Shown here: in pieces, positions 1 to 52,836 of the stretch
How the letters are laid out: each line of letters opens with the position of its first letter
Numbering within the stretch: the first letter of the stretch is position 1
Assembly (NCBI GenBank): GCA_951406725.2
Contig: OX597829.1
Coordinates: 28,086,001 to 28,150,000, forward strand
DNA length: 64,000 bases
Direction: 5' to 3'
Origin: Octopus vulgaris
Lineage: Eukaryota
Notes under the pieces: generated by a model
What the model was told of the DNA's origin: nothing
Database searches by the model: none
Seen by the model: only the letters and a program-made list of their open reading frames with translations
Position numbers and translations under genes: made by a program

Positions 1-111
1 CCTCATAGACTGGTAGTAAGATTTTGTATCGTTCAAGTTGAAATGAAGGAAAAAGTTATGTGTAGTTTGTTTCCTTTGATTCAGTTCTGATAATCTTTAA
101 CTGCACCCAAT

Positions 112-112
<1 letters not shown>

Positions 113-194
<82 letters not shown>

Positions 195-220
195 TTCTCT
201 CTCTCTCTTTCTCTCTCTCT
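113..220. repeat. (CT)n microsatellite
   Basis: Directly visible. Confidence 0.95.
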
Positions 221-1154
221 CGCTGAGCAGTCAGAAAAAACCCCCAGAAAAGTCTAAGGAATTTGTTTATCACTGGTGCTTCTTTTGTATAAGAACTGAT
301 CCCTTGCTGCCATTGTCTACAGGTTTAACGAGTTCCGGTCTAGTTGCTGTGGATGGTGGATATGATGGAGGGGTAGGATGATCTAGCAGGAGACAGTGGT
401 AGCAACAGTGGTCATTATAAAATCTTTTTCATGGATCCTTAATATAACTACGGTGGATCTCCGATTTACTAAGTTGCTTGTGTGGACTCCGAAAAATCTT
501 GTATGGCCCTTGGTTGAGAAACACTGACAAAGAACATTATAAGTGGCTGTCCATGATTCTTAGTGCTGTAAAATGGATCTCTGGTGCTTCTGATGATGAA
601 TTTTATATTGTTTTTCAATCAACTGAAATAGTTGCTTGTGGCTGTGTAGTTAAGTAACTCACTTCTCAATCATGTGGTCTTGGGTTCAGTTCCACTGTGC
701 AGTGTCTTGGGCAAGTGCCTTTAACTATTATAACTTTGTGAATAAATTTAAATGAATATATATATATATATACTGTTGATAGGCCAAATACTGCAGTATT
801 TGTCCAGAGATAATATTTCTTATGCACTTGCTGTGCTAAAAACACTACAAAATATCATAAAGACAAATGAAAATTTATCCCACCAGCTGTAGTGAGAGCC
901 ACAAGCATTTTGGCATTTTCAATGGTGCATACTTCCAGCCAGTCATATCATACACATTGATATATCTATATGCATATATCAATGTGTTTGTGTGTTTTTA
1001 GACATCATATGATCATTGTAAAGAGTATCACTGACATACAAATAATGTTGTTCACTTTCCTGCCATCCATTGTCACATTTTTTTACTTTGCTTCAAAGCA
1101 GGTGAGGGTTGGCAAAAAAGGCATCCAGTAGTAGAAAATGTACCTCAATAAATG

Positions 1155-9425: not shown

Positions 9426-9481
9426 CCAATACATGTTTGCCTGCCGGAAAACATCACTTATAACAAAGACATACCAACATC
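9426..9481 (+). CDS. TP53I13: DUF3105/TP53I13-like gene, internal exon (PIHVCLPENITYNKDIPT-S)
   Basis: tgcag| acceptor and |gtaagt donor; 56 nt, phase 0 to 2. Joins the next exon as TC|T (Ser). Peptide matches the DUF3105 'H.C....I.Y...IPT' segment as recalled. Confidence 0.88.
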
Positions 9482-12133: not shown

Positions 12134-13504
12134 CAGTGAACATTTACTGTGGAACTTCCCTGTCAAAACTATTTAGCTTGGGCATCATCCATCTCCCATC
12201 TTTCAAACTGGTAGCTTCCTCTCAGATTACACTGTAGTGGTACATGCTGACAGAAGTTCTCTCTGATCCAAACTTTTCCAACTCTCGTGCACTCCTGGTT
12301 CCTGCTTTGTTTGCCGTCACTACTTTCTCTTCTACACCTATGATCTACTCGCTGTCACCTGCAGCAACAACAACCTCTCCTATGCTAGGGAGATGTAAAC
12401 AAACCAACACTGGTTATCAAATGGCAAGTGACAGACACTAACTCAAAGATGCATGCACACACACACACATGCATACACATGCACCCATTCATGCACACAT
12501 GTGCACATGCACATACACACATGTGACAGGCTTTTGCATGATGTAAATGGTATATATGCAAACAGTACCGTCCTTCGTCTTCCTCTAACTTCTCTCCATC
12601 CTAACCTGCACTGAACAGAGAACTTAAAAATGCCCTCCCTCATGAGTGACAATAACAATGACAACTACAATTCCTATAGGAGAACCTCTATATGGCTCCC
12701 CAATCTATTAAAATTGCTGTCAAATCACCCTCATGTCACATCTGCAGTAGTTTCAGATAAAGTGTTTCAAAGTAAAAAATGTGATGTTTGCCGTACAAGT
12801 ACTTTTGATCATAGTTGTGCCAGTGCCACATAAAAGTTCCTGTGCGGTGCCGTGTCAAAGTACCCAGCACACTCTGTAATGCCGTTCGTGTTAGGAAGGG
12901 CACCCAGCTATTGAAGCCAAGCCTAATCAGACCAGAACTCTCCAGCTTGCCAGCTCTGGTCAATCCATCCATGCCAGCATGGAAAATGGTCTGGTCAAAC
13001 AATGCCAGCATGGAAAATGGATATTAAATGATACTGCTGCTGCTGATGATGATGGTTATCAATGACCTGAAGCTAAACAACATTTTACTACAGATAAAAA
13101 GAGACAAGATACCAATCTAGTTCCCTTCTAACCATCTGTCCATCCATCCATTTTCTCTACCCTTGATTCATGGTAGGGTCATGGGGGTAGAATCTTCATG
13201 TACCTCCTCCAAATTTTAATTTAATTAGATGATATGGTAGGCTGGCAGAATCATCAGCATACCAGGGAAAATGCTTAGTAGTTTTTGTCCATCTTTACAT
13301 TGAATTCTAATTCTGCTGAAGTCGACTTTGCCTTTCATCCTTTTGGGATCAGTAACATAAGTACCAGTGAATCACTAGGATCAATGCATTCAACTTAATC
13401 ACCTCCATCTTCTGAACTTACTGGCCCTGTGCCAAAATTTGAAACCATTTAATTAAACATTTTTAATAATCCAAACTTTGCTTTTTTTGTTTTTGTTTTT
13501 GCAG

Positions 13505-13583
13505 TGGTAGTCACCGACCTCTGTGGCCAAAATATGGAGATTATATGTACTTGCCACCACAGCGATGGTTACATTCACTTGAG
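13505..13583 (+). CDS. TP53I13: DUF3105/TP53I13-like gene, core exon ([26 protein letters not shown])
   Basis: Long polypyrimidine tract plus gcag| acceptor and |gtgagt donor; 79 nt, phase 2 to 0. Carries the hallmark [20 protein letters not shown] motif of metazoan DUF3105 proteins. Confidence 0.93.
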
Positions 13584-13998
13584 GTGAGTAGACTTTAACA
13601 TTTAACTACTGTAAATCAGAGGATGAATGTTTCCAGCCTTAAATAGACATAAAATATTTAGGAGTATTCATTAAATCTTTTTATTAGTGATATTTTTTAA
13701 AGTGTTTTATTTGAACACCTCTTTATTGCTGGGTATACAAAGAGGTGCTGAAAAACTCCTGAAAATACTTGCACATTGTGTTGATACTTCACACCACAAG
13801 ATTTACTTCACCTATGTATTTTGTTTTAATAAAAGTTTATATTATTTGGAGGAGATACATGAAGATTCTACCCCCATGACCCTACCATGAATTAAGGGTA
13901 GAGAAAATGGATGGATGGTTTTATTGTAGATATTTTCCATCAATTGTCTTAATATTTTACTTATTTTTCGTATATTTTTCATATATATTTTACATGCA

Positions 13999-14352
13999 TG
14001 GTAAGTAGCTTGCTTACCAACCACATGGTTCTGGGTTCAGTCCCACTGCATGGCACCTTGACCACAGAGGTCGGTGACTACCACTGCAAAAACAAACAAA
14101 AAAGTATATATATATAATATTATATTATATATATGTGTGTATGTATATTTGTGTGTTTGTGTTTGTCCCCCCAACTCACTTGACAACCGATGCTGGTGTG
14201 TTTATGCCCCTGTAACTTAGCAGTTTGGTAAAAGAAACCGATAGAATAAATACTAGACATACAAAGAATAAATCCTAGGGTCACTTTGCTCAACTAAAGG
14301 TGGTTCTCCAGCATGGCTGCTGCAGATGACTGAAACAAGTAAAAGAATAAAA
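13999..14352 (+). mobile_element. SINE family A with its middle replaced by an antisense splice-site copy
   Basis: Head to ggcaccttg (about 14060), foreign segment to 14104, then the SINE body resumes. Confidence 0.85.
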
Positions 14353-16042
14353 GAAAAAAAGAATATTTTGTGAAGTTTTTCTGTATTTACATTTGTTGCA
14401 ATGAATGTCTTTCAGTTTAAATTCAGGTCAGGCCAGAATGAACAATTCTGTATTTTTATTGAAGATGTAGGGCAACATTATTTAATGTGTCCTTCATTTT
14501 TAAAATGTTAGAGCATAGTGTGAGGGAGATTTGGCTGTTATTTCTATCAAATTGAACAATCACACAGACTACCTCATCGGCTCATTTGCTGATGTGTACA
14601 AGTAAGCAAAAAGCAAAGGAAATGGATCTCCATCTGTTTCTAGGATTATCAGTCCAGTTGTATAATCAACTGGACTGTTTACACATTCAACTGGTACTTT
14701 ATTTTATCAACCCTCAAAGGATGAAAGGCAAAGTCAACCTAGGTGGAATTTGAACTCAAAATGTAAAGCATTTTACCCAGGTGGTGGACATTAGAGGGTT
14801 GATAAGAAGAGAAGAGGCAAGTGGGATGGAAACGTTGGAGAGGAGGGGAGGTGAGCTCAGCTAGCTGCAAGGAGCAAAGCCATATAGTAGCTGTAGAAAT
14901 GACAGAGAGAGGGGACACTGAATGTCTGGGCATCAGAGGATGGAGCACATCTGTGAGTAGTTAATCTGTCAGGTGACCAAAGCATTAGGAGTAAAATTGG
15001 TTAAATAGAAACTGTCTGGAACCCTGCCAAATGAAGTACAACTAATTTAAAGAGCCAACCTTGTCTCACACCAAATATGCAGCTAATAAGTAAAAGAGAA
15101 ATTTTTAAGGAAATTAATTAAGTGCATGGATTTAAGTGAAATTTTTGAAGTTACTTTTGTCAGTAAATAAGGAACTTAATTTTATCAATAATTCCATCAA
15201 CAACAATAAAAAGAAAACAATAATGTTGTAAAAGTAAATATGGAATTTGTAGGCAAATTTAACAAAGTGTATGGATTGGAGTGAAATTTATGAAGTTAAT
15301 TTTGTAAATTATGCAATTACTCTCATCAGTAATTTATGTAATTTTCATCAGTAAATTATGAAATTACTTTCATCAGTAATTGTGAACTTCTTTCTGTCAG
15401 TAATTTGTTGTTGTTTGAAAACAATAGCGACTGAACTTCAAGTGAAAACAATAGCATCTGAAAAATGAAAGTGAAAACAATAGAGAGTGAGTGAGATATA
15501 GAGAGAGAAGGAGAGAGAGAGGGAGAGCTAACTAGTTAGACAGACAAATAAGATAGATATAGATAGATAAGATATAGACAGATAGATACAGAGAGATAGA
15601 TAGATAGAGAGATAGAGATAGATAGAGAGATATATCGAGATAGATAGAGAGATATATCGAGATAGATAGATAGATAGATTTGTGTGTGAGTGCGATATGT
15701 CTCATGTTTATAAACCAGCAGTAACTTATTGTTTACTGTACTAAAACCAAAATTAATATCAGGTCTAGACATTATAGTGGGACACTTTAGTTGTTTCTTT
15801 TATGTTCAGAAATCCTTTGAAAACACACAAAAACCGTAGTTCCAAAAAATTTAAACATTCCTTTATTTATGTGTAGTTGTTACATCACTGATGCTAGTAA
15901 ACCAGAAGTAAATAATTCAAAAATCTTTCAAAGACGTGAATGTAATATAAAAAGCATGTGTCTGAGGTCAAATTATTTATGCAACACAAGTATGGAAGTA
16001 ATTGGTGAAGCCATTTTCGTGTGAAAAGTGAACACACATCTC

Positions 16043-17689: not shown

Positions 17690-17818
17690 CATGGTGCAGC
17701 TGTATTCTTATATCATCCATGTGCCAATAAAGCTAACATTAGCTATTTTAAAAGAATAGCTTTTGGTTGCTTAAAGAAGATTATTGTGACTCCATCAAGT
17801 AAGGTACCAAAAAGTAGG
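17690..17818 (+). CDS. TP53I13: DUF3105/TP53I13-like gene, exon (HGAAVFLYHPCANKANISYFKRIAFGCLKKIIVTPSSKVPKSR)
   Basis: ttttcttttag| acceptor and |gtaagt donor; 129 nt, phase 0-0. Continues the motif LE|HGA.V.LYHPCA...C....I.TP. Confidence 0.93.
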
Positions 17819-23792: not shown

Positions 23793-24009
23793 GTATGTAT
23801 AACCCAAGTACTCCAATACAAGCCCTGGGCTATTCAGTTTTATTTGTAAATATCTGGGGAGTCTTTCATTTCAGATTCTGGTATTTTCAGAATTGAATGA
23901 AAGTAGATTTGCCCAATTTGCTTTAGAATATTCTCTAACAAAATGTCATCAAATGTGGTTTGTTTATTTTTAGTAAGTGTACTTTGTAATGTATTTTTTG
24001 TGTTACACA

Positions 24010-24335
24010 GATGCATGGCGCAGTGGTTAGACTATCAGGCTCACAGTCATGAATTAGTGAGTTCGATTCCCAGAATCTGTGTGTTGTGTTCTTGAGCAGG
24101 ACACTTTATTTCATGTTGCTCCACTTCATTCAGCTGTAGAAATGAGTTGTGACGTCATTGGTACCAAGCTGTATCGGACTTTGCATTTCTCTCAGATAGC
24201 ATCAGTGGTGTGGAGAAGAGAGACAGGCATGCATGGACGACCTCTGGTCTTCCATAAACAACCTTGCTCAGACTTTTGCCTCGAAGGGGAACTTTCTAGA
24301 TGTAATCTTCATTGATGACCAAAGTGGGGTTTTAC
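24010..24335 (+). mobile_element. tRNA-derived SINE family D
   Basis: tggcgcagtggttag A box and gagttcgattcc B box; homologous copy at 48760-49100. Confidence 0.8.
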
Positions 24336-26094: not shown

Positions 26095-26960
26095 TACGTG
26101 AGAAGTAGCTATCTGATAGCAGAGGGCTTGGGATTTACTTGCATGTTGTTTTCTTCGGCCCATTTATATTTGGAATCTAGGTTGTTCTGTAGAAGTTTAT
26201 CTTTGGAAGATTCCTTCATTGCTTATGCTATTTTTGTGTCATCTGCATAGCTAGTAAGTGTGGTTGTCAACATAACTGATGGCATATTCATTGAGAGGCC
26301 ACCATAAACAGCAGTTGCTTCAAGACAGTTCCTCGAGTTACTCCACTCTCTATTACTGTCTCCATCAGCTGAATGAAGTGGAGCAACATGAAATAAAGTA
26401 TCTTGCTCAAGAACACAACACACAGATTCTGGGAATCGAACTCACTAATTCATGACTGTGAGCCTGATAGTCTAACCACTGTGCCATGCATCTGTGTAAC
26501 ACAAAAAATACATTACAAAGTACACTTACTAAAAATAAACAAACCACATTTGTAACCACTTTCTCAGTCTTCCAACTGTGCGGAGTCTCTGTAGCTTGAG
26601 ACATATCATCCTGTGATCAACCTTATCAAAGGCTTTTGCAAAGGAGAGATTTATCACATCCACTTTTAAGTGATTCCTTAGTTGTTTCAAAACCCTGTCT
26701 TAATGCTGCAAAAGCTGTGTAGGGCAGCTTCATCCTGAGTGGAAACCATGCTGAATGTCAGGGAGCAAGTCATTATCTTTGAGGAACACAATCAATTTCC
26801 TCCTGACAATGAATTCCATGACTTTGCTGACATGGGAAGTTAGAGATACAGGACTATAATTTTGAGCATCTACTCTGCTACCTCCTTAGGTACAGGACAT
26901 ATTATGCCTTCTTTTAACTTTCTGAGAAGTATCCCTGTTGTAAGGAAGATCTGGAAGAGG
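26095..26960 (-). mobile_element. Decayed LINE reverse transcriptase (CR1/L2/Jockey group)
   Basis: YADDTKI motif at about 26230-26250 and upstream FAKAFDKVDH-like motif at about 26615-26645; interrupted at 26366-26552. Confidence 0.75.
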
Positions 26961-28348: not shown

Positions 28349-28459
28349 TCAAGTATGTATATATATATATATATAATTATATTAGGGAGTATATATATTT
28401 ATATGTGTGTGTGTGTGTGTGTATTTTTTACAAATTTGTATGAATGTGTATAGAATAAT

Positions 28460-29072
28460 ATATCAGTTGAACAAAATTTAAACATGGTCTGGTTTTCATG
28501 TTTTTTATTATGGTATTTTAGCATTAAAAAAATATATTTTGTAATGTTCATAAAGCTCAGTTAGCACTTTCATACGTTCATAGTAATCATCAGATTTCAA
28601 AATGTTCTTAACTGACTGTTGAGTTCTTGACAACTGTAGTGCCTCTTAGAATGCTCCAACAAGCTGAATATTTGGAATTGGTTTTGGCCAATCCACATGC
28701 AACTTATACATTATGGTTTTTCAGGTGTACCGATATTACTGGGATAGATCCTGCCTTTATTTTAACCAATTAGTTTGCTGTTTAAATGTAATGGTTTTAT
28801 GTGTTTCAATTGTTTTTATTTGGTTTCAATTGTTTTTATTTCAGTTGGTGAAAATCTTCTGTAATTTGTTTATATTCATATGTTAAAGATATTTTTCAAT
28901 CCACATCATTAACTGGTTGTTATATTATTGTTGTTATTTCTGTTCAGAACAGGTTTGAACATTTTAATAAACCGTTTTTATGAACATTACAAAATATATT
29001 TTTTTAATGTTAAAATACCATAATAAAAGATGTGAAAACCAGACCATGTTTTAGCTTTATTCAACTGATATA
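28460..29072. mobile_element. Element with ~95-bp inverted termini in (TA)n, possible Penelope end remnant
   Basis: 28460-28554 is the reverse complement of about 28977-29072; degenerate minus-strand CTGATGA...GAAA motif at about 28556-28600. Confidence 0.6.
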
Positions 29073-29084
29073 TATATATTACTC

Positions 29085-32346: not shown

Positions 32347-32351
<5 letters not shown>

Positions 32352-32560
32352 AAGTATAGAAGCCATCTTAATATGGCTAACCACATAGGGGAGGGGGTGT
32401 TACTGTAGCTTTATAGCCCCAGGAGATCGTCATCTCCAGCTGGCTTTAGACACCATTTCAGTGCCAGCTGGAGACGACGATCTCCTGGGGCTATAAAGCT
32501 ACAGTAACACCCCCTCCCCTATGTGGTTAGCCATATTAAGATGGCTTCTATACTTTACAT
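32347..32560. repeat. Near-perfect ~100-bp-arm palindrome, Penelope-associated terminal sequence
   Basis: Arms complementary around a short spacer; right arm plus extension recurs at about 47987-48100 next to the GIY-YIG element. Confidence 0.85.
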
Positions 32561-37490: not shown

Positions 37491-38242
37491 ACTAAAGCCA
37501 ATTCATCATTGATGTGTGTACATAAATACATATAAATACATGCACACAGACAATAACATAGATATGCTTGTACAATAACTAATACTGCTTAAGGTGAAAA
37601 CGATTACCCATAAAATGGATCAAAATTGTTCTTAATGAAAGCATATTCAGTCTAATAGGAAATTGCTAATTGTTAGCCATTGCTATGCTGCCTGGTAACG
37701 ACCTAGTCATGATGAAATAGATCTTTCAACAGAAACCCACTACAAGGATTGCATAGATATGCTCAACAACCTGTTTTTTTTCTTTCTTGAAACAAATTTT
37801 AATTCCATCTTCCAGGCACTGTGCTTGTGTGTGTGTGTGTGTGTACGTGTGTTCATGTGCGTGCATGTGTGTGTATTATGTCTGTAATTGTATGTAATTG
37901 TGTGTATAGTGTATTCTCCAAATTACACACATATGTACTTATGTGTGATTTTCATGATTATATATGTATTTATATATGCCCTTGTATTCATTATATATAT
38001 AATGAATACATGTGTGTGTGTGTGTGTAATATGATATAATATATGTGTTTATACATATTTTTTTGATACAGAACTTACTGGACAATTACAAAGACATGGT
38101 TGAGAATATTGCACTGACTTAATTTACAGTATGTTATGTATATATATATAATATTTGTGTAATGGTGTTGTATATGTGTAAAGATATTATACATATGTAA
38201 TGTTTGTGTTATTATGCGTGCATGTGTTTGTGTGTTTCTGTC

Positions 38243-45825: not shown

Positions 45826-46699
45826 TATCTCATATGCTTGCCATAATAATTAAAACGGCCATTAGCCATTGAGGTAACGTTGCCTATTGTTTTTCGATTA
45901 ACTATTTAATTGTCACTGCATTGAACTATGCTAAACATTAACATGACTAATGCAGGGTTTTGGTTTGGTGCCAGTGCTTTTGGCTTCAATAATAATTTCA
46001 TATGAATTGAATTATTGTTTTTAACATATTTCCACAGGAATTTATCTCAACTAATACTACTGCTGCTGCTGTTGCCACTACTGCTGCTACTACTTCTGCA
46101 GATAATAATAACACTACTAATTATTCTTTTCAAAAATTGTAATTATGGTAATAACAATAATAATAATGGTAAAGGTTGTCGTGATGATTTTTCTTTTTGC
46201 CATCTGGGCACTATGATACAGAAACATTTAAAAGGAAAGAATAAAGAAAACACTATCTCATAACAAAAATAATTATGGTGGTGCTAATAAATTATTTTGA
46301 AAAAGCATAACTCATTTGTTTTGTTTTACTTTGAGTTGGATTAATTTGTCAGATTTTCTATTTAATCTATCATTCCTTTTTTAGTAAATTACTAATAATT
46401 TAGAAGTTTGCTTTGCAACCAGATGAGTCACACTATGTGACACCTTGGGCAGGTGTCTTTTTCTATAGCCCCAGGCCAACCAATGCCTTGTGAGTGAAGT
46501 TGGTTGTCGGAAACTGAAAGAAGCCTGTTTTATATGTGCATGTGTGTGTGTATCATCATCATCATCATTGTTTAATGACTAGCAGAGTCAAAAAATATTC
46601 TAACAAAATGTTTTACAGCTCGAATGCATATGATCACATGTTTGCTATGAGTGGAAGAATTCAAATACTTGGGAATCACGATTATATCTACAAGCATTA

Positions 46700-48100: not shown

Positions 48101-48759
48101 ATTTATAAGTAATTTTATATGTATTTTTATATATTCTTATATCTCTTCTATATATGAGATAAAGTGTCTTGCTCAACAACACAACACAAGGCCTGGTCCA
48201 GTAATCGAACTCACAACCTCATAATCATAAGCTCAACACTCTAACCTTGTAAAGTCAATACCACCATGACTGATATCCAATCTACAGTGGAGAAGGCTAG
48301 CCACTGGATTTGGTTAAAAAGAGACGATGAGCGATGGCTAGAAGTATATTGAGTTCTTCATAACCAGCTGATCTAGCAAGCGGGGCCTCATATCAGTGAG
48401 GGGGGCCGGTGCGCATTGATGCCGTCGAGAGGTAGGCCCCGAAACGGCGTGCATTCTCTCCTGATGACCCCATACACTTGCTAGCTTCCGGTATACGGAG
48501 CTTTTAACTGGTAGCACTTGCATGTGCAAGTTGTTTGCAAGACATTTATATCCTTGGAGAATCTTTATGCCTGTACATGCATGATTTGTGTTGATGTGTA
48601 TAAATATATATTATTCAACTACTTTGACTGAATATTTTCATTTATGTGTTCGGGAATCTGTTTGACTGCCTATGATTTGTGTTTTCAATTTCCTCTACTC
48701 TCTCTCTCTCTCTCTTTCTCTCCCTCTCTTTATATATATATATATATATATATATAGTG

Positions 48760-51779: not shown

Positions 51780-51929
51780 TTTCTGACAAGTTGTGGTGCA
51801 CCTGAGCACTGTATACAATAATTTCATTATTATTATATATATATATATATATAGTAATAACTATAATCCTTGGATGGAATTAATTAATTTATAAACCAGT
51901 AGAAACAGAGGAAACAAAATACACTAACA

Positions 51930-52545
51930 AAAGAAATGGAAAAGCAAGTGATGAAATTATTTGGTTTAATCCAACTTTCAATTCACAGATAAAATCCAAA
52001 ATAAGTCAGGAATTCTTTGCAACATTAGATAAGCACTTTCCAAGATCTAAATATCACAAAATCATCAACAGGCATAACATAAAATTAGCATATCTAATCT
52101 AAAATACCACATACATTAACTAAATAATGCAAAACTAAATAGAATAAAACTGGAGGGGTGATATGGAACAGCCGTAGATCATTACACAGTATACAACAAT
52201 GGAATGGTTGCAAATAAGAGTAATAAAAGCTCATCAATAGCAAAAACAGATCCAAACAACACCACTGAGTTGACAGTCCAATCCATACATAAGGAAAATG
52301 AGTACACGATTATAGGAGGAAGAGGAAGGGGGACCATCAGTTGTAACTCTGCTGGGAGATCAGAAAAAATAAGATCATTTGTAATTGCAGACATAAAGAA
52401 AATGTAAATTTAACAACAACTGCATGATAAAGGATGTACTTTACAAATGTGAGGTGAAGGCAGATACGCAGAAATATATGTACACTGGTGGCACTAGAGA
52501 CACAACGAAATACGTATACATAACCATCTTATATCATTTTCCAAT
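51930..52545 (+). mobile_element. Penelope-like (Naiad-type) remnant
   Basis: IIWFNPTFN..., then DVLYKCEVK...YMYTGGT...IHNHL.SF. Confidence 0.75.
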
Positions 52546-52836
52546 ATAAGGTTTGTTAGTGTATTTTGTTTCCTCTGCTACTGTTTTATAAATTAATAAA
52601 TTCCATCCAAGGATTATTATTATGGTTTTCTTTATTAGTTAGTCTTCTCCAACAGGGATGCCTTGACAAAGACCAGAGGTCCCTCACTCCCACTGGGTTT
52701 ACTGTTCCTTCAAATATCAACCCAAATATTTCTACAGCCAAGTGCTAATATATACAGACACACTGTGACAGATACACACTCCTGCACACACACACACACA
52801 CACACACTCACACACATACATGTGCGCGCGCGCGCG

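What the first reader, a model, noticed from the sequence alone, without database searches (positions are those of the whole stretch)
13481..14104. Antisense copy of the core exon's splice acceptor captured inside a downstream SINE
Seen: 14060-14104 (gaccacagaggtcggtgactaccactgcaaaaacaaacaaaaaag) is the reverse complement of about 13481-13527, i.e. the polypyrimidine tract, AG and first ~22 coding nt, and it replaces the middle of a SINE A copy. In the pre-mRNA it could form a ~45-bp duplex over the 3' splice site. Knowledge: coleoids recode extensively by ADAR, which needs such complementary sequences and prefers UAG. A13509 is in a UAG context (AGT Ser to Gly); CAC His to Arg and the acceptor A13503 are also inside the duplex. 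Skipping this 79-nt exon would frameshift. Inference: a newly created editing-complementary or splice-masking element born by templated insertion.
Basis: partly seen in the sequence, partly recalled or inferred. Interest (0 to 1): 0.85.

Follow-up and report, generated by a model that had tools for sequence, protein, structure and literature searches.

The report
Backward repair copy over splice site
An octopus gene's intron holds a short backwards copy of the start of the neighbouring exon, likely left by DNA-break repair; it is predicted to be able to pair with that exon in the RNA, but no editing or splicing effect was seen, so it is likely an incidental scar.

Summary
Observation confirmed. 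14058-14104 is an inverted copy of 13481-13530 (acceptor plus 26 coding nt of a DUF3105 exon), with a 35-nt perfect core, found once in the genome. It replaced ~81 nt of a SINE, with junction microhomology: the signature of a foldback/template-switch insertion. Function is unsupported. The one RNA contig laid includes the exon and reads A at 13513 and 13517; 13503 and 13509 were masked by the tool. Gly occurs in 0 of 43 homologues at Ser115, His116 is invariant, and 13517 is silent. It copies no exon, encloses this exon and crosses the proposed duplex, which stays feasible only as a pseudoknot. Presence of the copy in other individuals was not established. Verdict: likely a neutral repair scar with an incidental RNA duplex; low-level editing is not excluded. 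The scan noted a similar copy earlier in an arthropod TRPgamma intron (e1-7513212).

The parts
14058..14104 (-). Inverted templated copy (B') of the acceptor region. About 42 inserted nt (14062-14103) plus junction microhomology: 14058-14061 (TTGG in both SINE and template, now TTGA) and G14104
   Evidence: found once in G000
13481..13530 (+). Template (B): polypyrimidine tract, acceptor AG 13503-13504 and first 26 coding nt; perfect core 13492-13526
13505..13583 (+). 79-nt core exon of the DUF3105 (TP53I13-like) gene, residues 113-139 of P0002; holds invariant G114, H116, R117, H136 and E139
   Evidence: included in RNA contig X19 record 13
13509..13510 (+). UAG adenosine (Ser115Gly if edited). 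Also a downstream AG whose use as acceptor would drop Gly114-Ser115 in frame (inference from sequence)
   Evidence: not examined in RNA because the tool masked it
13999..14362 (+). Host SINE copy, 5'-shortened, with ~81 nt of its middle replaced by B'. Head 60/62 and tail 175/198 identical to the majority of 39 copies
13140..13214 (+). Arm A: 75-nt fragment of a dispersed repeat end with a (CCAT)n run; other genomic copies are 77-85% identical
13844..13918 (-). Arm A': second local inverted copy (97% to A) that replaced 12 nt of an older repeat. A:A' encloses the exon and crosses B:B'
   Evidence: contig breaks in X5 fit both arms being present
13770..13995 (.). Older AT-rich dispersed repeat interrupted by A' and by the SINE; it resumes at about 14362
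9426..9481 (+). Upstream coding exon (ends in phase 2)
17690..17818 (+). Downstream coding exon; holds the premature stop if 13505-13583 is skipped

Best explanation
The 47-nt stretch at 14058-14104 is a backwards copy of the exon's splice acceptor region that replaced about 81 nt of a SINE, likely made when a broken or stalled DNA end folded back 530 nt, was extended, and was rejoined; the RNA duplex it is predicted to form is likely incidental and not selected. Shown: inverted copy, single genomic source, deletion in the host SINE, microhomology at both joints. Inferred: a single-stranded 3' end ending in TTGG annealed to CCAA at 13527-13530, copied ~42 nt leftwards, then rejoined the SINE's AT-rich middle. 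In the pre-mRNA the copy would pair with the acceptor only as a pseudoknot across the stronger, earlier-transcribed 75-bp A:A' helix. It may attract some ADAR editing, most likely at A13509, but the exon is included in the major transcript seen.
For: Delins with 4-nt and 1-nt microhomology matches the foldback inversions and MMB-TI signature in PMC11724301 and PMC8421209. A second local inverted insertion 140 nt away copies a repeat fragment, not an exon, so such copies arise here without any exon target. Local inverted pairs also occur elsewhere, 8 in 600 kb, about 37,000 genome-wide by extrapolation and including TE ends. Nested folding of 13100-14200 gives B:B' probability 0.0 and A:A' 0.98, a 53 kcal/mol gap. 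The RNA contig X19 (769 nt, depth 62) includes the exon with 0 other letters over 13513-13583. Gly is absent at position 115 in 43 of 43 homologues and His116 is invariant. The arms differ by 1 substitution and 3 nt, and organism C has a T>C change at 13520 inside the core. [quoted passage not shown]
Against: With A:A' held, the 35-bp core still nets -32.5 kcal/mol at 37 C and -42.8 at 18 C before any pseudoknot penalty, so the duplex may well form. A13509 is in a UAG context (ADAR preference recalled), and it and A13503 were masked. Contigs drop minor variants, and only 1 of the 9 RNA-labelled runs listed (X15-X20, X22-X24) was laid, tissue unknown. The 527-nt loop is longer than the within-100-bp templates of MMB-TI searches and the 41-nt yeast loop. 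A random template would hit an acceptor of this gene only about 3-6% of the time for 4 events.
Confidence: 0.72

Rival explanations
1. Same origin, but the copy works as a newly born editing-complementary sequence that gives appreciable (5-10% or more) Ser115Gly recoding, with lesser His116Arg, in neural tissue of this Octopus lineage.
For: 35-bp perfect core at -66.9 kcal/mol, still favourable after opening costs. UAG context at A13509. Position 115 is variable (9 residue types in 43), so the change may be tolerated. Intron-guided editing precedes splicing and depends on its speed (PMC5291252 abstract).
Against: No Gly among 43 homologues, and His116 in the same duplex is invariant. A13513 and A13517 read A in the one RNA contig. 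The crossing A:A' helix is transcribed first and wins nested folding. No compensatory change was seen.
Confidence: 0.15
2. The copy, alone or with the 75-bp A:A' stem that loops out the exon, masks the acceptor and causes partial skipping coupled to nonsense-mediated decay, tuning gene dose.
For: The duplex covers the pyrimidine tract and AG. Skipping creates a stop 22 codons on. Masking of pyrimidine tracts and looping-out of exons are known mechanisms (PMC7404189 passages).
Against: The RNA contig is unbroken through the exon. All 11 annotated isoforms from three Octopus species include the exon, though skipped forms would be degraded and under-annotated. The laid stretch held no flanking exon, so skipping was not directly testable.
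Confidence: 0.08
3. The copy is an assembly artefact or a private allele of the sequenced animal.
For: No listed contig piece of X2, X5 or X13 showed 14061-14104, and X2's contig crosses the template unbroken. Part of the stretch (14088-14240) was masked and SINE contigs swamped the output.
Against: The copy differs from its template at 4 nt and has biological-looking junctions. Its poly-T tract is 3 nt shorter than the template's, close to the net 4 nt missing from organism D's contig, while organisms A and C have the long tract (from record lengths). That suggests, indirectly, an origin before the A/C split. Contigs lose unique links between high-copy repeats (inference).
Confidence: 0.05

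Closest known systems
Microhomology-mediated templated insertions (MMB-TI; PMC8421209) and local foldback inversions at breaks (PMC11724301)
   Same: Short inverted copy of a nearby template, replacing local sequence, with microhomology at the priming joint and little at the other; such events persist as germline variants.
   Different: That is still within reported meiotic resection lengths of 1-2 kb per side (PMC7615360). Here the template happens to be a splice acceptor.
Intronic editing-complementary sequences of ADAR substrates (e.g. GluR-B/GRIA2; PMC5291252 abstract, PMC1920255 listing)
   Same: Downstream intronic sequence complementary to an exon of the same transcript, a few hundred nt away.
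   Different: Lineage-recent and a near-perfect copy that also covers the acceptor. No editing shown, no conservation shown, and it is crossed by a stronger stem.
Splice-site-masking and exon looping-out RNA stems (review PMC7404189)
   Same: B:B' would cover the pyrimidine tract and AG; A:A' would loop out the whole exon.
   Different: No skipped isoform seen; the exon is frame-shifting and core to the protein.

Membership tests
MMB-TI / foldback templated inverted insertion | Insertion is an inverted copy of a nearby template | tested here: met
MMB-TI / foldback templated inverted insertion | Insertion is derived and replaces ancestral sequence | tested here: met
   ~81 nt of the SINE middle, present in the majority of 39 copies, is missing
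MMB-TI / foldback templated inverted insertion | Microhomology at the junctions | tested here: met
   TTGG shared by SINE majority and template (one later change at 14061); 1 nt at the right joint
MMB-TI / foldback templated inverted insertion | Template within 100 bp (operational limit of MMBSearch, not a mechanistic one) | tested here: not met
   527 nt between arms; limit read
MMB-TI / foldback templated inverted insertion | Dependence on repair polymerase and end joining | not testable with these tools
   past germline event
ADAR editing-complementary sequence | Can form an exon-intron duplex of 20 bp or more in the same transcript | tested here: met
   predicted only: 35-bp core, -66.9 kcal/mol; needs a pseudoknot with A:A'
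ADAR editing-complementary sequence | A-to-G in RNA against DNA within the duplex | tested here: inconclusive
   one RNA contig reads A at 13513 and 13517; 13503 and 13509 masked; contigs drop minor variants
ADAR editing-complementary sequence | Pairing conserved, with compensatory changes | tested here: inconclusive
   uncompensated differences between arms, and T>C at 13520 in organism C; B' itself not seen in other runs
ADAR editing-complementary sequence | Editing lost when the element is deleted | not testable with these tools
   needs a minigene
Splice-masking RNA structure | Stem covers a core splice signal | tested here: met
   predicted: covers 13481-13504
Splice-masking RNA structure | Skipped or alternative isoform that depends on the stem | tested here: inconclusive
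   inclusion seen; flanking exons were not in the laid stretch

The most novel reading that the evidence does not exclude
A single DNA-repair foldback created, in one step, a working editing-complementary sequence that recodes Ser115 to Gly next to an invariant histidine in Octopus. Templated inverted insertions (thousands genome-wide) would then be a general source of new lineage-specific recoding sites in coleoids, with a second scar (A:A') acting as a competing stem.
Probability: 0.15. Interest if true: 0.72.

Novelty: new member of a known kind. Interest (0 to 1): 0.33.

Why it matters
As a scar it is ordinary, though it is a clean example of a templated inversion from about 530 nt away. 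Its value is as a ready-made test of how new ADAR sites arise in coleoids. The duplex is datable, sits on a core exon, has an outgroup, and predicts four named adenosines. A positive result would show one mutation creating a recoding site. A negative one would show that a perfect 35-bp complement over an acceptor can be tolerated.

Tried and rejected
(1) Raw-read test of editing. All 24 runs listed were contigs, not raw reads, and 4 of 24 were laid. The tool skipped 13474-13512 and 14088-14240, and the 86% threshold let SINE contigs swamp the joint and loose-end tables. Lack of B' pieces there proves nothing. (2) Published editing lists. Gene-name searches in the supplements of PMC8382921, PMC8891338 and PMC9699675 gave 0 hits, but these files appear not to hold site tables (even 'vulgaris' had 0 hits). 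The 2017 Cell paper was not held. Tables I could not see may settle A13509. (3) 'Hotspot with fixed 500-700 nt spacing'. There are 7 local inverted pairs at 400-800 nt in 60 kb of the window against 1 in 800 kb elsewhere (last 4 kb of window not tiled). On inspection they are mixed. 28458/29073 is a trait of its repeat family (1 of 3 other copies checked has the same kind of inverted end). 51857/52623 lies at the edges of a repeat fragment. 48154/48869 adjoins a young 300-nt element. 54615/55320 are two ends of one repeat family, and 24636/25219 is split by a SINE. With those at 28, 52, 54 and 24.6 kb and B' itself set aside, 3 remain against 8 unfiltered in 600 kb, p=0.07. A hotspot is not established. 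(4) The Penelope-like label for the 28 kb and 52 kb elements rests on recalled motifs; Pfam did not confirm it. (5) Rfam: 0 matches in the window. (6) PDB sequence search: 0 matches. Fold searches gave only weak thioredoxin-like matches, best Z 5.2, so they give no functional reading of Ser115 or His116. (7) Literature searches listed no paper on an editing-complementary sequence born by templated inverted insertion; only listings were seen, and the library lacks most subscription papers. (8) One search was swamped by the young element and said nothing about the 48154 arm.

Full report
OBSERVATION. The match is real. 14058-14104 is the reverse complement of 13481-13530, with a 35-nt perfect core (13492-13526 with 14062-14096), one substitution (14061) and 3 nt missing from the poly-T runs; the arms are 527 nt apart. 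The longest exact inverted match in 1000 resamples was 13 nt, and the other 7 of 8 acceptor regions tested have 8-12 nt. In G000 the query found only itself and this copy.

GENE. The exon 13505-13583 hits Pfam DUF3105 and is identical to residues 113-139 of P0002, labelled Octopus vulgaris. Homologues in other molluscs are named TP53-inducible protein 13. The neighbouring exons are 9426-9481 and 17690-17818; the first two coding exons lie upstream of the window. Skipping shifts the frame and stops after 22 codons. Among 43 homologues, position 115 holds S 14, A 12, R 4, K 4, P 3, M 2, N 2, T 1, Q 1 and G 0, while H116 and R117 are invariant. A13517 is a silent third position. An AG at 13509-13510 could act as a fallback acceptor, removing Gly114-Ser115 in frame (inference from sequence).

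ORIGIN. Against the majority of 39 full-length SINE copies, about 81 nt are gone and about 42 nt of inverted template stand in their place. The left joint shares TTGG with both the SINE and the template (now TTGA); the right joint shares one G. This fits the foldback inversions described in yeast (PMC11724301; abstract and section 15 read) and human germline MMB-TIs (PMC8421209; passages). The loop here is longer, though within the 1-2 kb of resection reported at meiotic breaks (PMC7615360; passages). The enzymology is inferred, not shown. The SINE tail is 88% identical to the majority, so the copy is likely younger than its host. The SINE itself sits inside an older AT-rich repeat.

A second inverted pair, 13140-13214 / 13844-13918 (75 nt, 97%), lies 140 nt from the first. 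A' replaced 12 nt of the older repeat, whose two halves are adjacent elsewhere in the genome. Its template is a fragment of a dispersed repeat whose other copies are only 77-85% identical (40 of 105 candidates scored). Its ends coincide with the fragment's ends and it shows no clear microhomology, so its mechanism is unresolved. It shows that local inverted copies arise here without an exon target. A:A' (-143 kcal/mol) encloses the exon and crosses B:B' (-76). Nested folding of 13100-14200 gives pair probabilities 0.98 and 0.0 at 15, 20 and 37 C. Folding 13400-14200, which omits A, does form B:B' (z -8.85). With A:A' enforced, opening both B arms costs about 34 kcal/mol, leaving -32.5 before a pseudoknot penalty. 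B:B' is therefore disfavoured in order of appearance but not excluded.

READ EVIDENCE. All 24 listed runs are contigs, and 4 were laid on 13030-14240. The RNA-labelled run X19 has one 769-nt contig (depth 62) that covers 13513-13583 with no other letter and runs on at both sides, as a spliced transcript would. So inclusion is present and A13513 and A13517 read A in the major form. 13474-13512 was skipped, so A13503 and A13509 are untested, and skipping could not be seen because no flanking exon was in the stretch. Organism C differs at 13520 (T>C, silent, inside the core) and at 13541 (D to E, as in the proteins labelled O. sinensis). Organism D's three exon changes match P0003, labelled O. 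bimaculoides. X5's contig breaks at 13173 and 13856/13885 fit both A arms being present. B' was not shown in any run; masking and SINE noise make that uninformative. From record lengths, D lacks a net 4 nt, probably in the masked tract, whereas X2 and X5 match the window's length. B' is 3 nt shorter than B, which hints that it copied an older, shorter tract before the A/C split. This is indirect; slippage in B' is the alternative.

CONTEXT. Local inverted pairs with 400-800 nt spacing number 7 in 60 kb of the window and 1 in 800 kb sampled elsewhere. Four are repeat-structure features, of a kind described for Penelope-like elements (PMC8557442; passages); my label rests on recalled motifs that Pfam did not confirm. 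After setting them and B' aside, the excess is 3 against 8, p=0.07. At the background rate of 8 per 600 kb (about 37,000 genome-wide, TE ends included), some such copies will overlap splice sites by chance. For this gene the chance was 3-6% over four events.

LITERATURE ON FUNCTION. Intron-guided editing depends on splicing speed (PMC5291252; abstract). Stems can mask pyrimidine tracts or loop out exons (PMC7404189; passages). In O. vulgaris most editing is in introns and 3' UTRs, and it very rarely altered splice sites (PMC9699675; passages and supplement passages). Most coleoid sites are edited below 10% (PMC8891338; passages). No site table for this gene was reachable. Searches listed no paper on an ECS born this way (listings only). 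No notes exist for this genome.

VERDICT. A real templated inverted insertion. Most likely a neutral repair scar with an incidental, possibly weakly edited duplex (0.72). A working new ECS is possible (0.15), splice masking less so (0.08), artefact or private allele unlikely (0.05). Interest 0.33; new member of a known kind.

Noticed in passing
window 13140-13214 / 13844-13918: A 75-nt, 97% inverted pair encloses the core exon in a 629-nt loop. It is a better predicted ADAR substrate and looping-out candidate than the reported copy. The copy's ends coincide exactly with the ends of the repeat fragment it copies, which is unexplained.
   Followed up: yes
window 13030-13165 joined to 13892-13777 (run X2, record 17): A DNA contig runs from the left flank through the arm into the reversed inner segment with no mismatch. 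This is either an inversion allele that would flip the exon or, more likely, a contig-graph artefact (the reciprocal joint was not listed).
   Followed up: partly
window 13140-55320: Seven local inverted pairs at 400-800 nt spacing against 1 in 800 kb elsewhere. They are of mixed origin on inspection; the 200 kb of flanks are also richer in inverted pairs (about 5 per 100 kb) than random stretches (1.3).
   Followed up: partly
window 48249-48548: A very young ~300-nt element, 96-99% identical at 39 other places scored, directly beside a 93-nt inverted copy of a nearby SINE. It holds CTGATGA and GAAAC words recalled from hammerhead ribozymes, but Rfam gave no match.
   Followed up: partly
window 23950-24136 / 26366-26552: A 187-nt, 98% inverted copy of a flank-plus-SINE junction 2.2 kb away; best other genomic matches cover only the SINE part at 83-89%.
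   Followed up: partly
window 28354-29073 and 51857-52623: Decayed retroelement fragments with an inverted duplication at one end; Penelope-like by recalled motifs only.
   Followed up: partly
P0006 (window exons 7706-38119): A confident model (pLDDT 91.7) of the DUF3105 protein shows only weak thioredoxin-like fold matches over residues 121-214 (best Z 5.2, rmsd 2.7, 91 aligned). Invariant H116, H136, E139 and H140 suggest a metal or catalytic site (inference).
   Followed up: partly
window 38072-38119 and about 46035-46139: Two alternative last coding exons, both also annotated in O. bimaculoides isoforms.
   Followed up: no
P0007, P0009, P0013: The O. sinensis models of this gene end early, inside the exon matching 17690-17818; a frameshift in that assembly or a real loss, not tested.
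   Followed up: no
L086:6979-9898: A near-perfect (99-100%) array of ~590-nt units with an inverted copy, about 90 kb upstream of the window.
   Followed up: no
window 1-378 / 2160-2417 and 32347-32560: Two ~120-nt direct duplications about 2 kb apart in shuffled order, and a 214-nt near-perfect palindrome.
   Followed up: no
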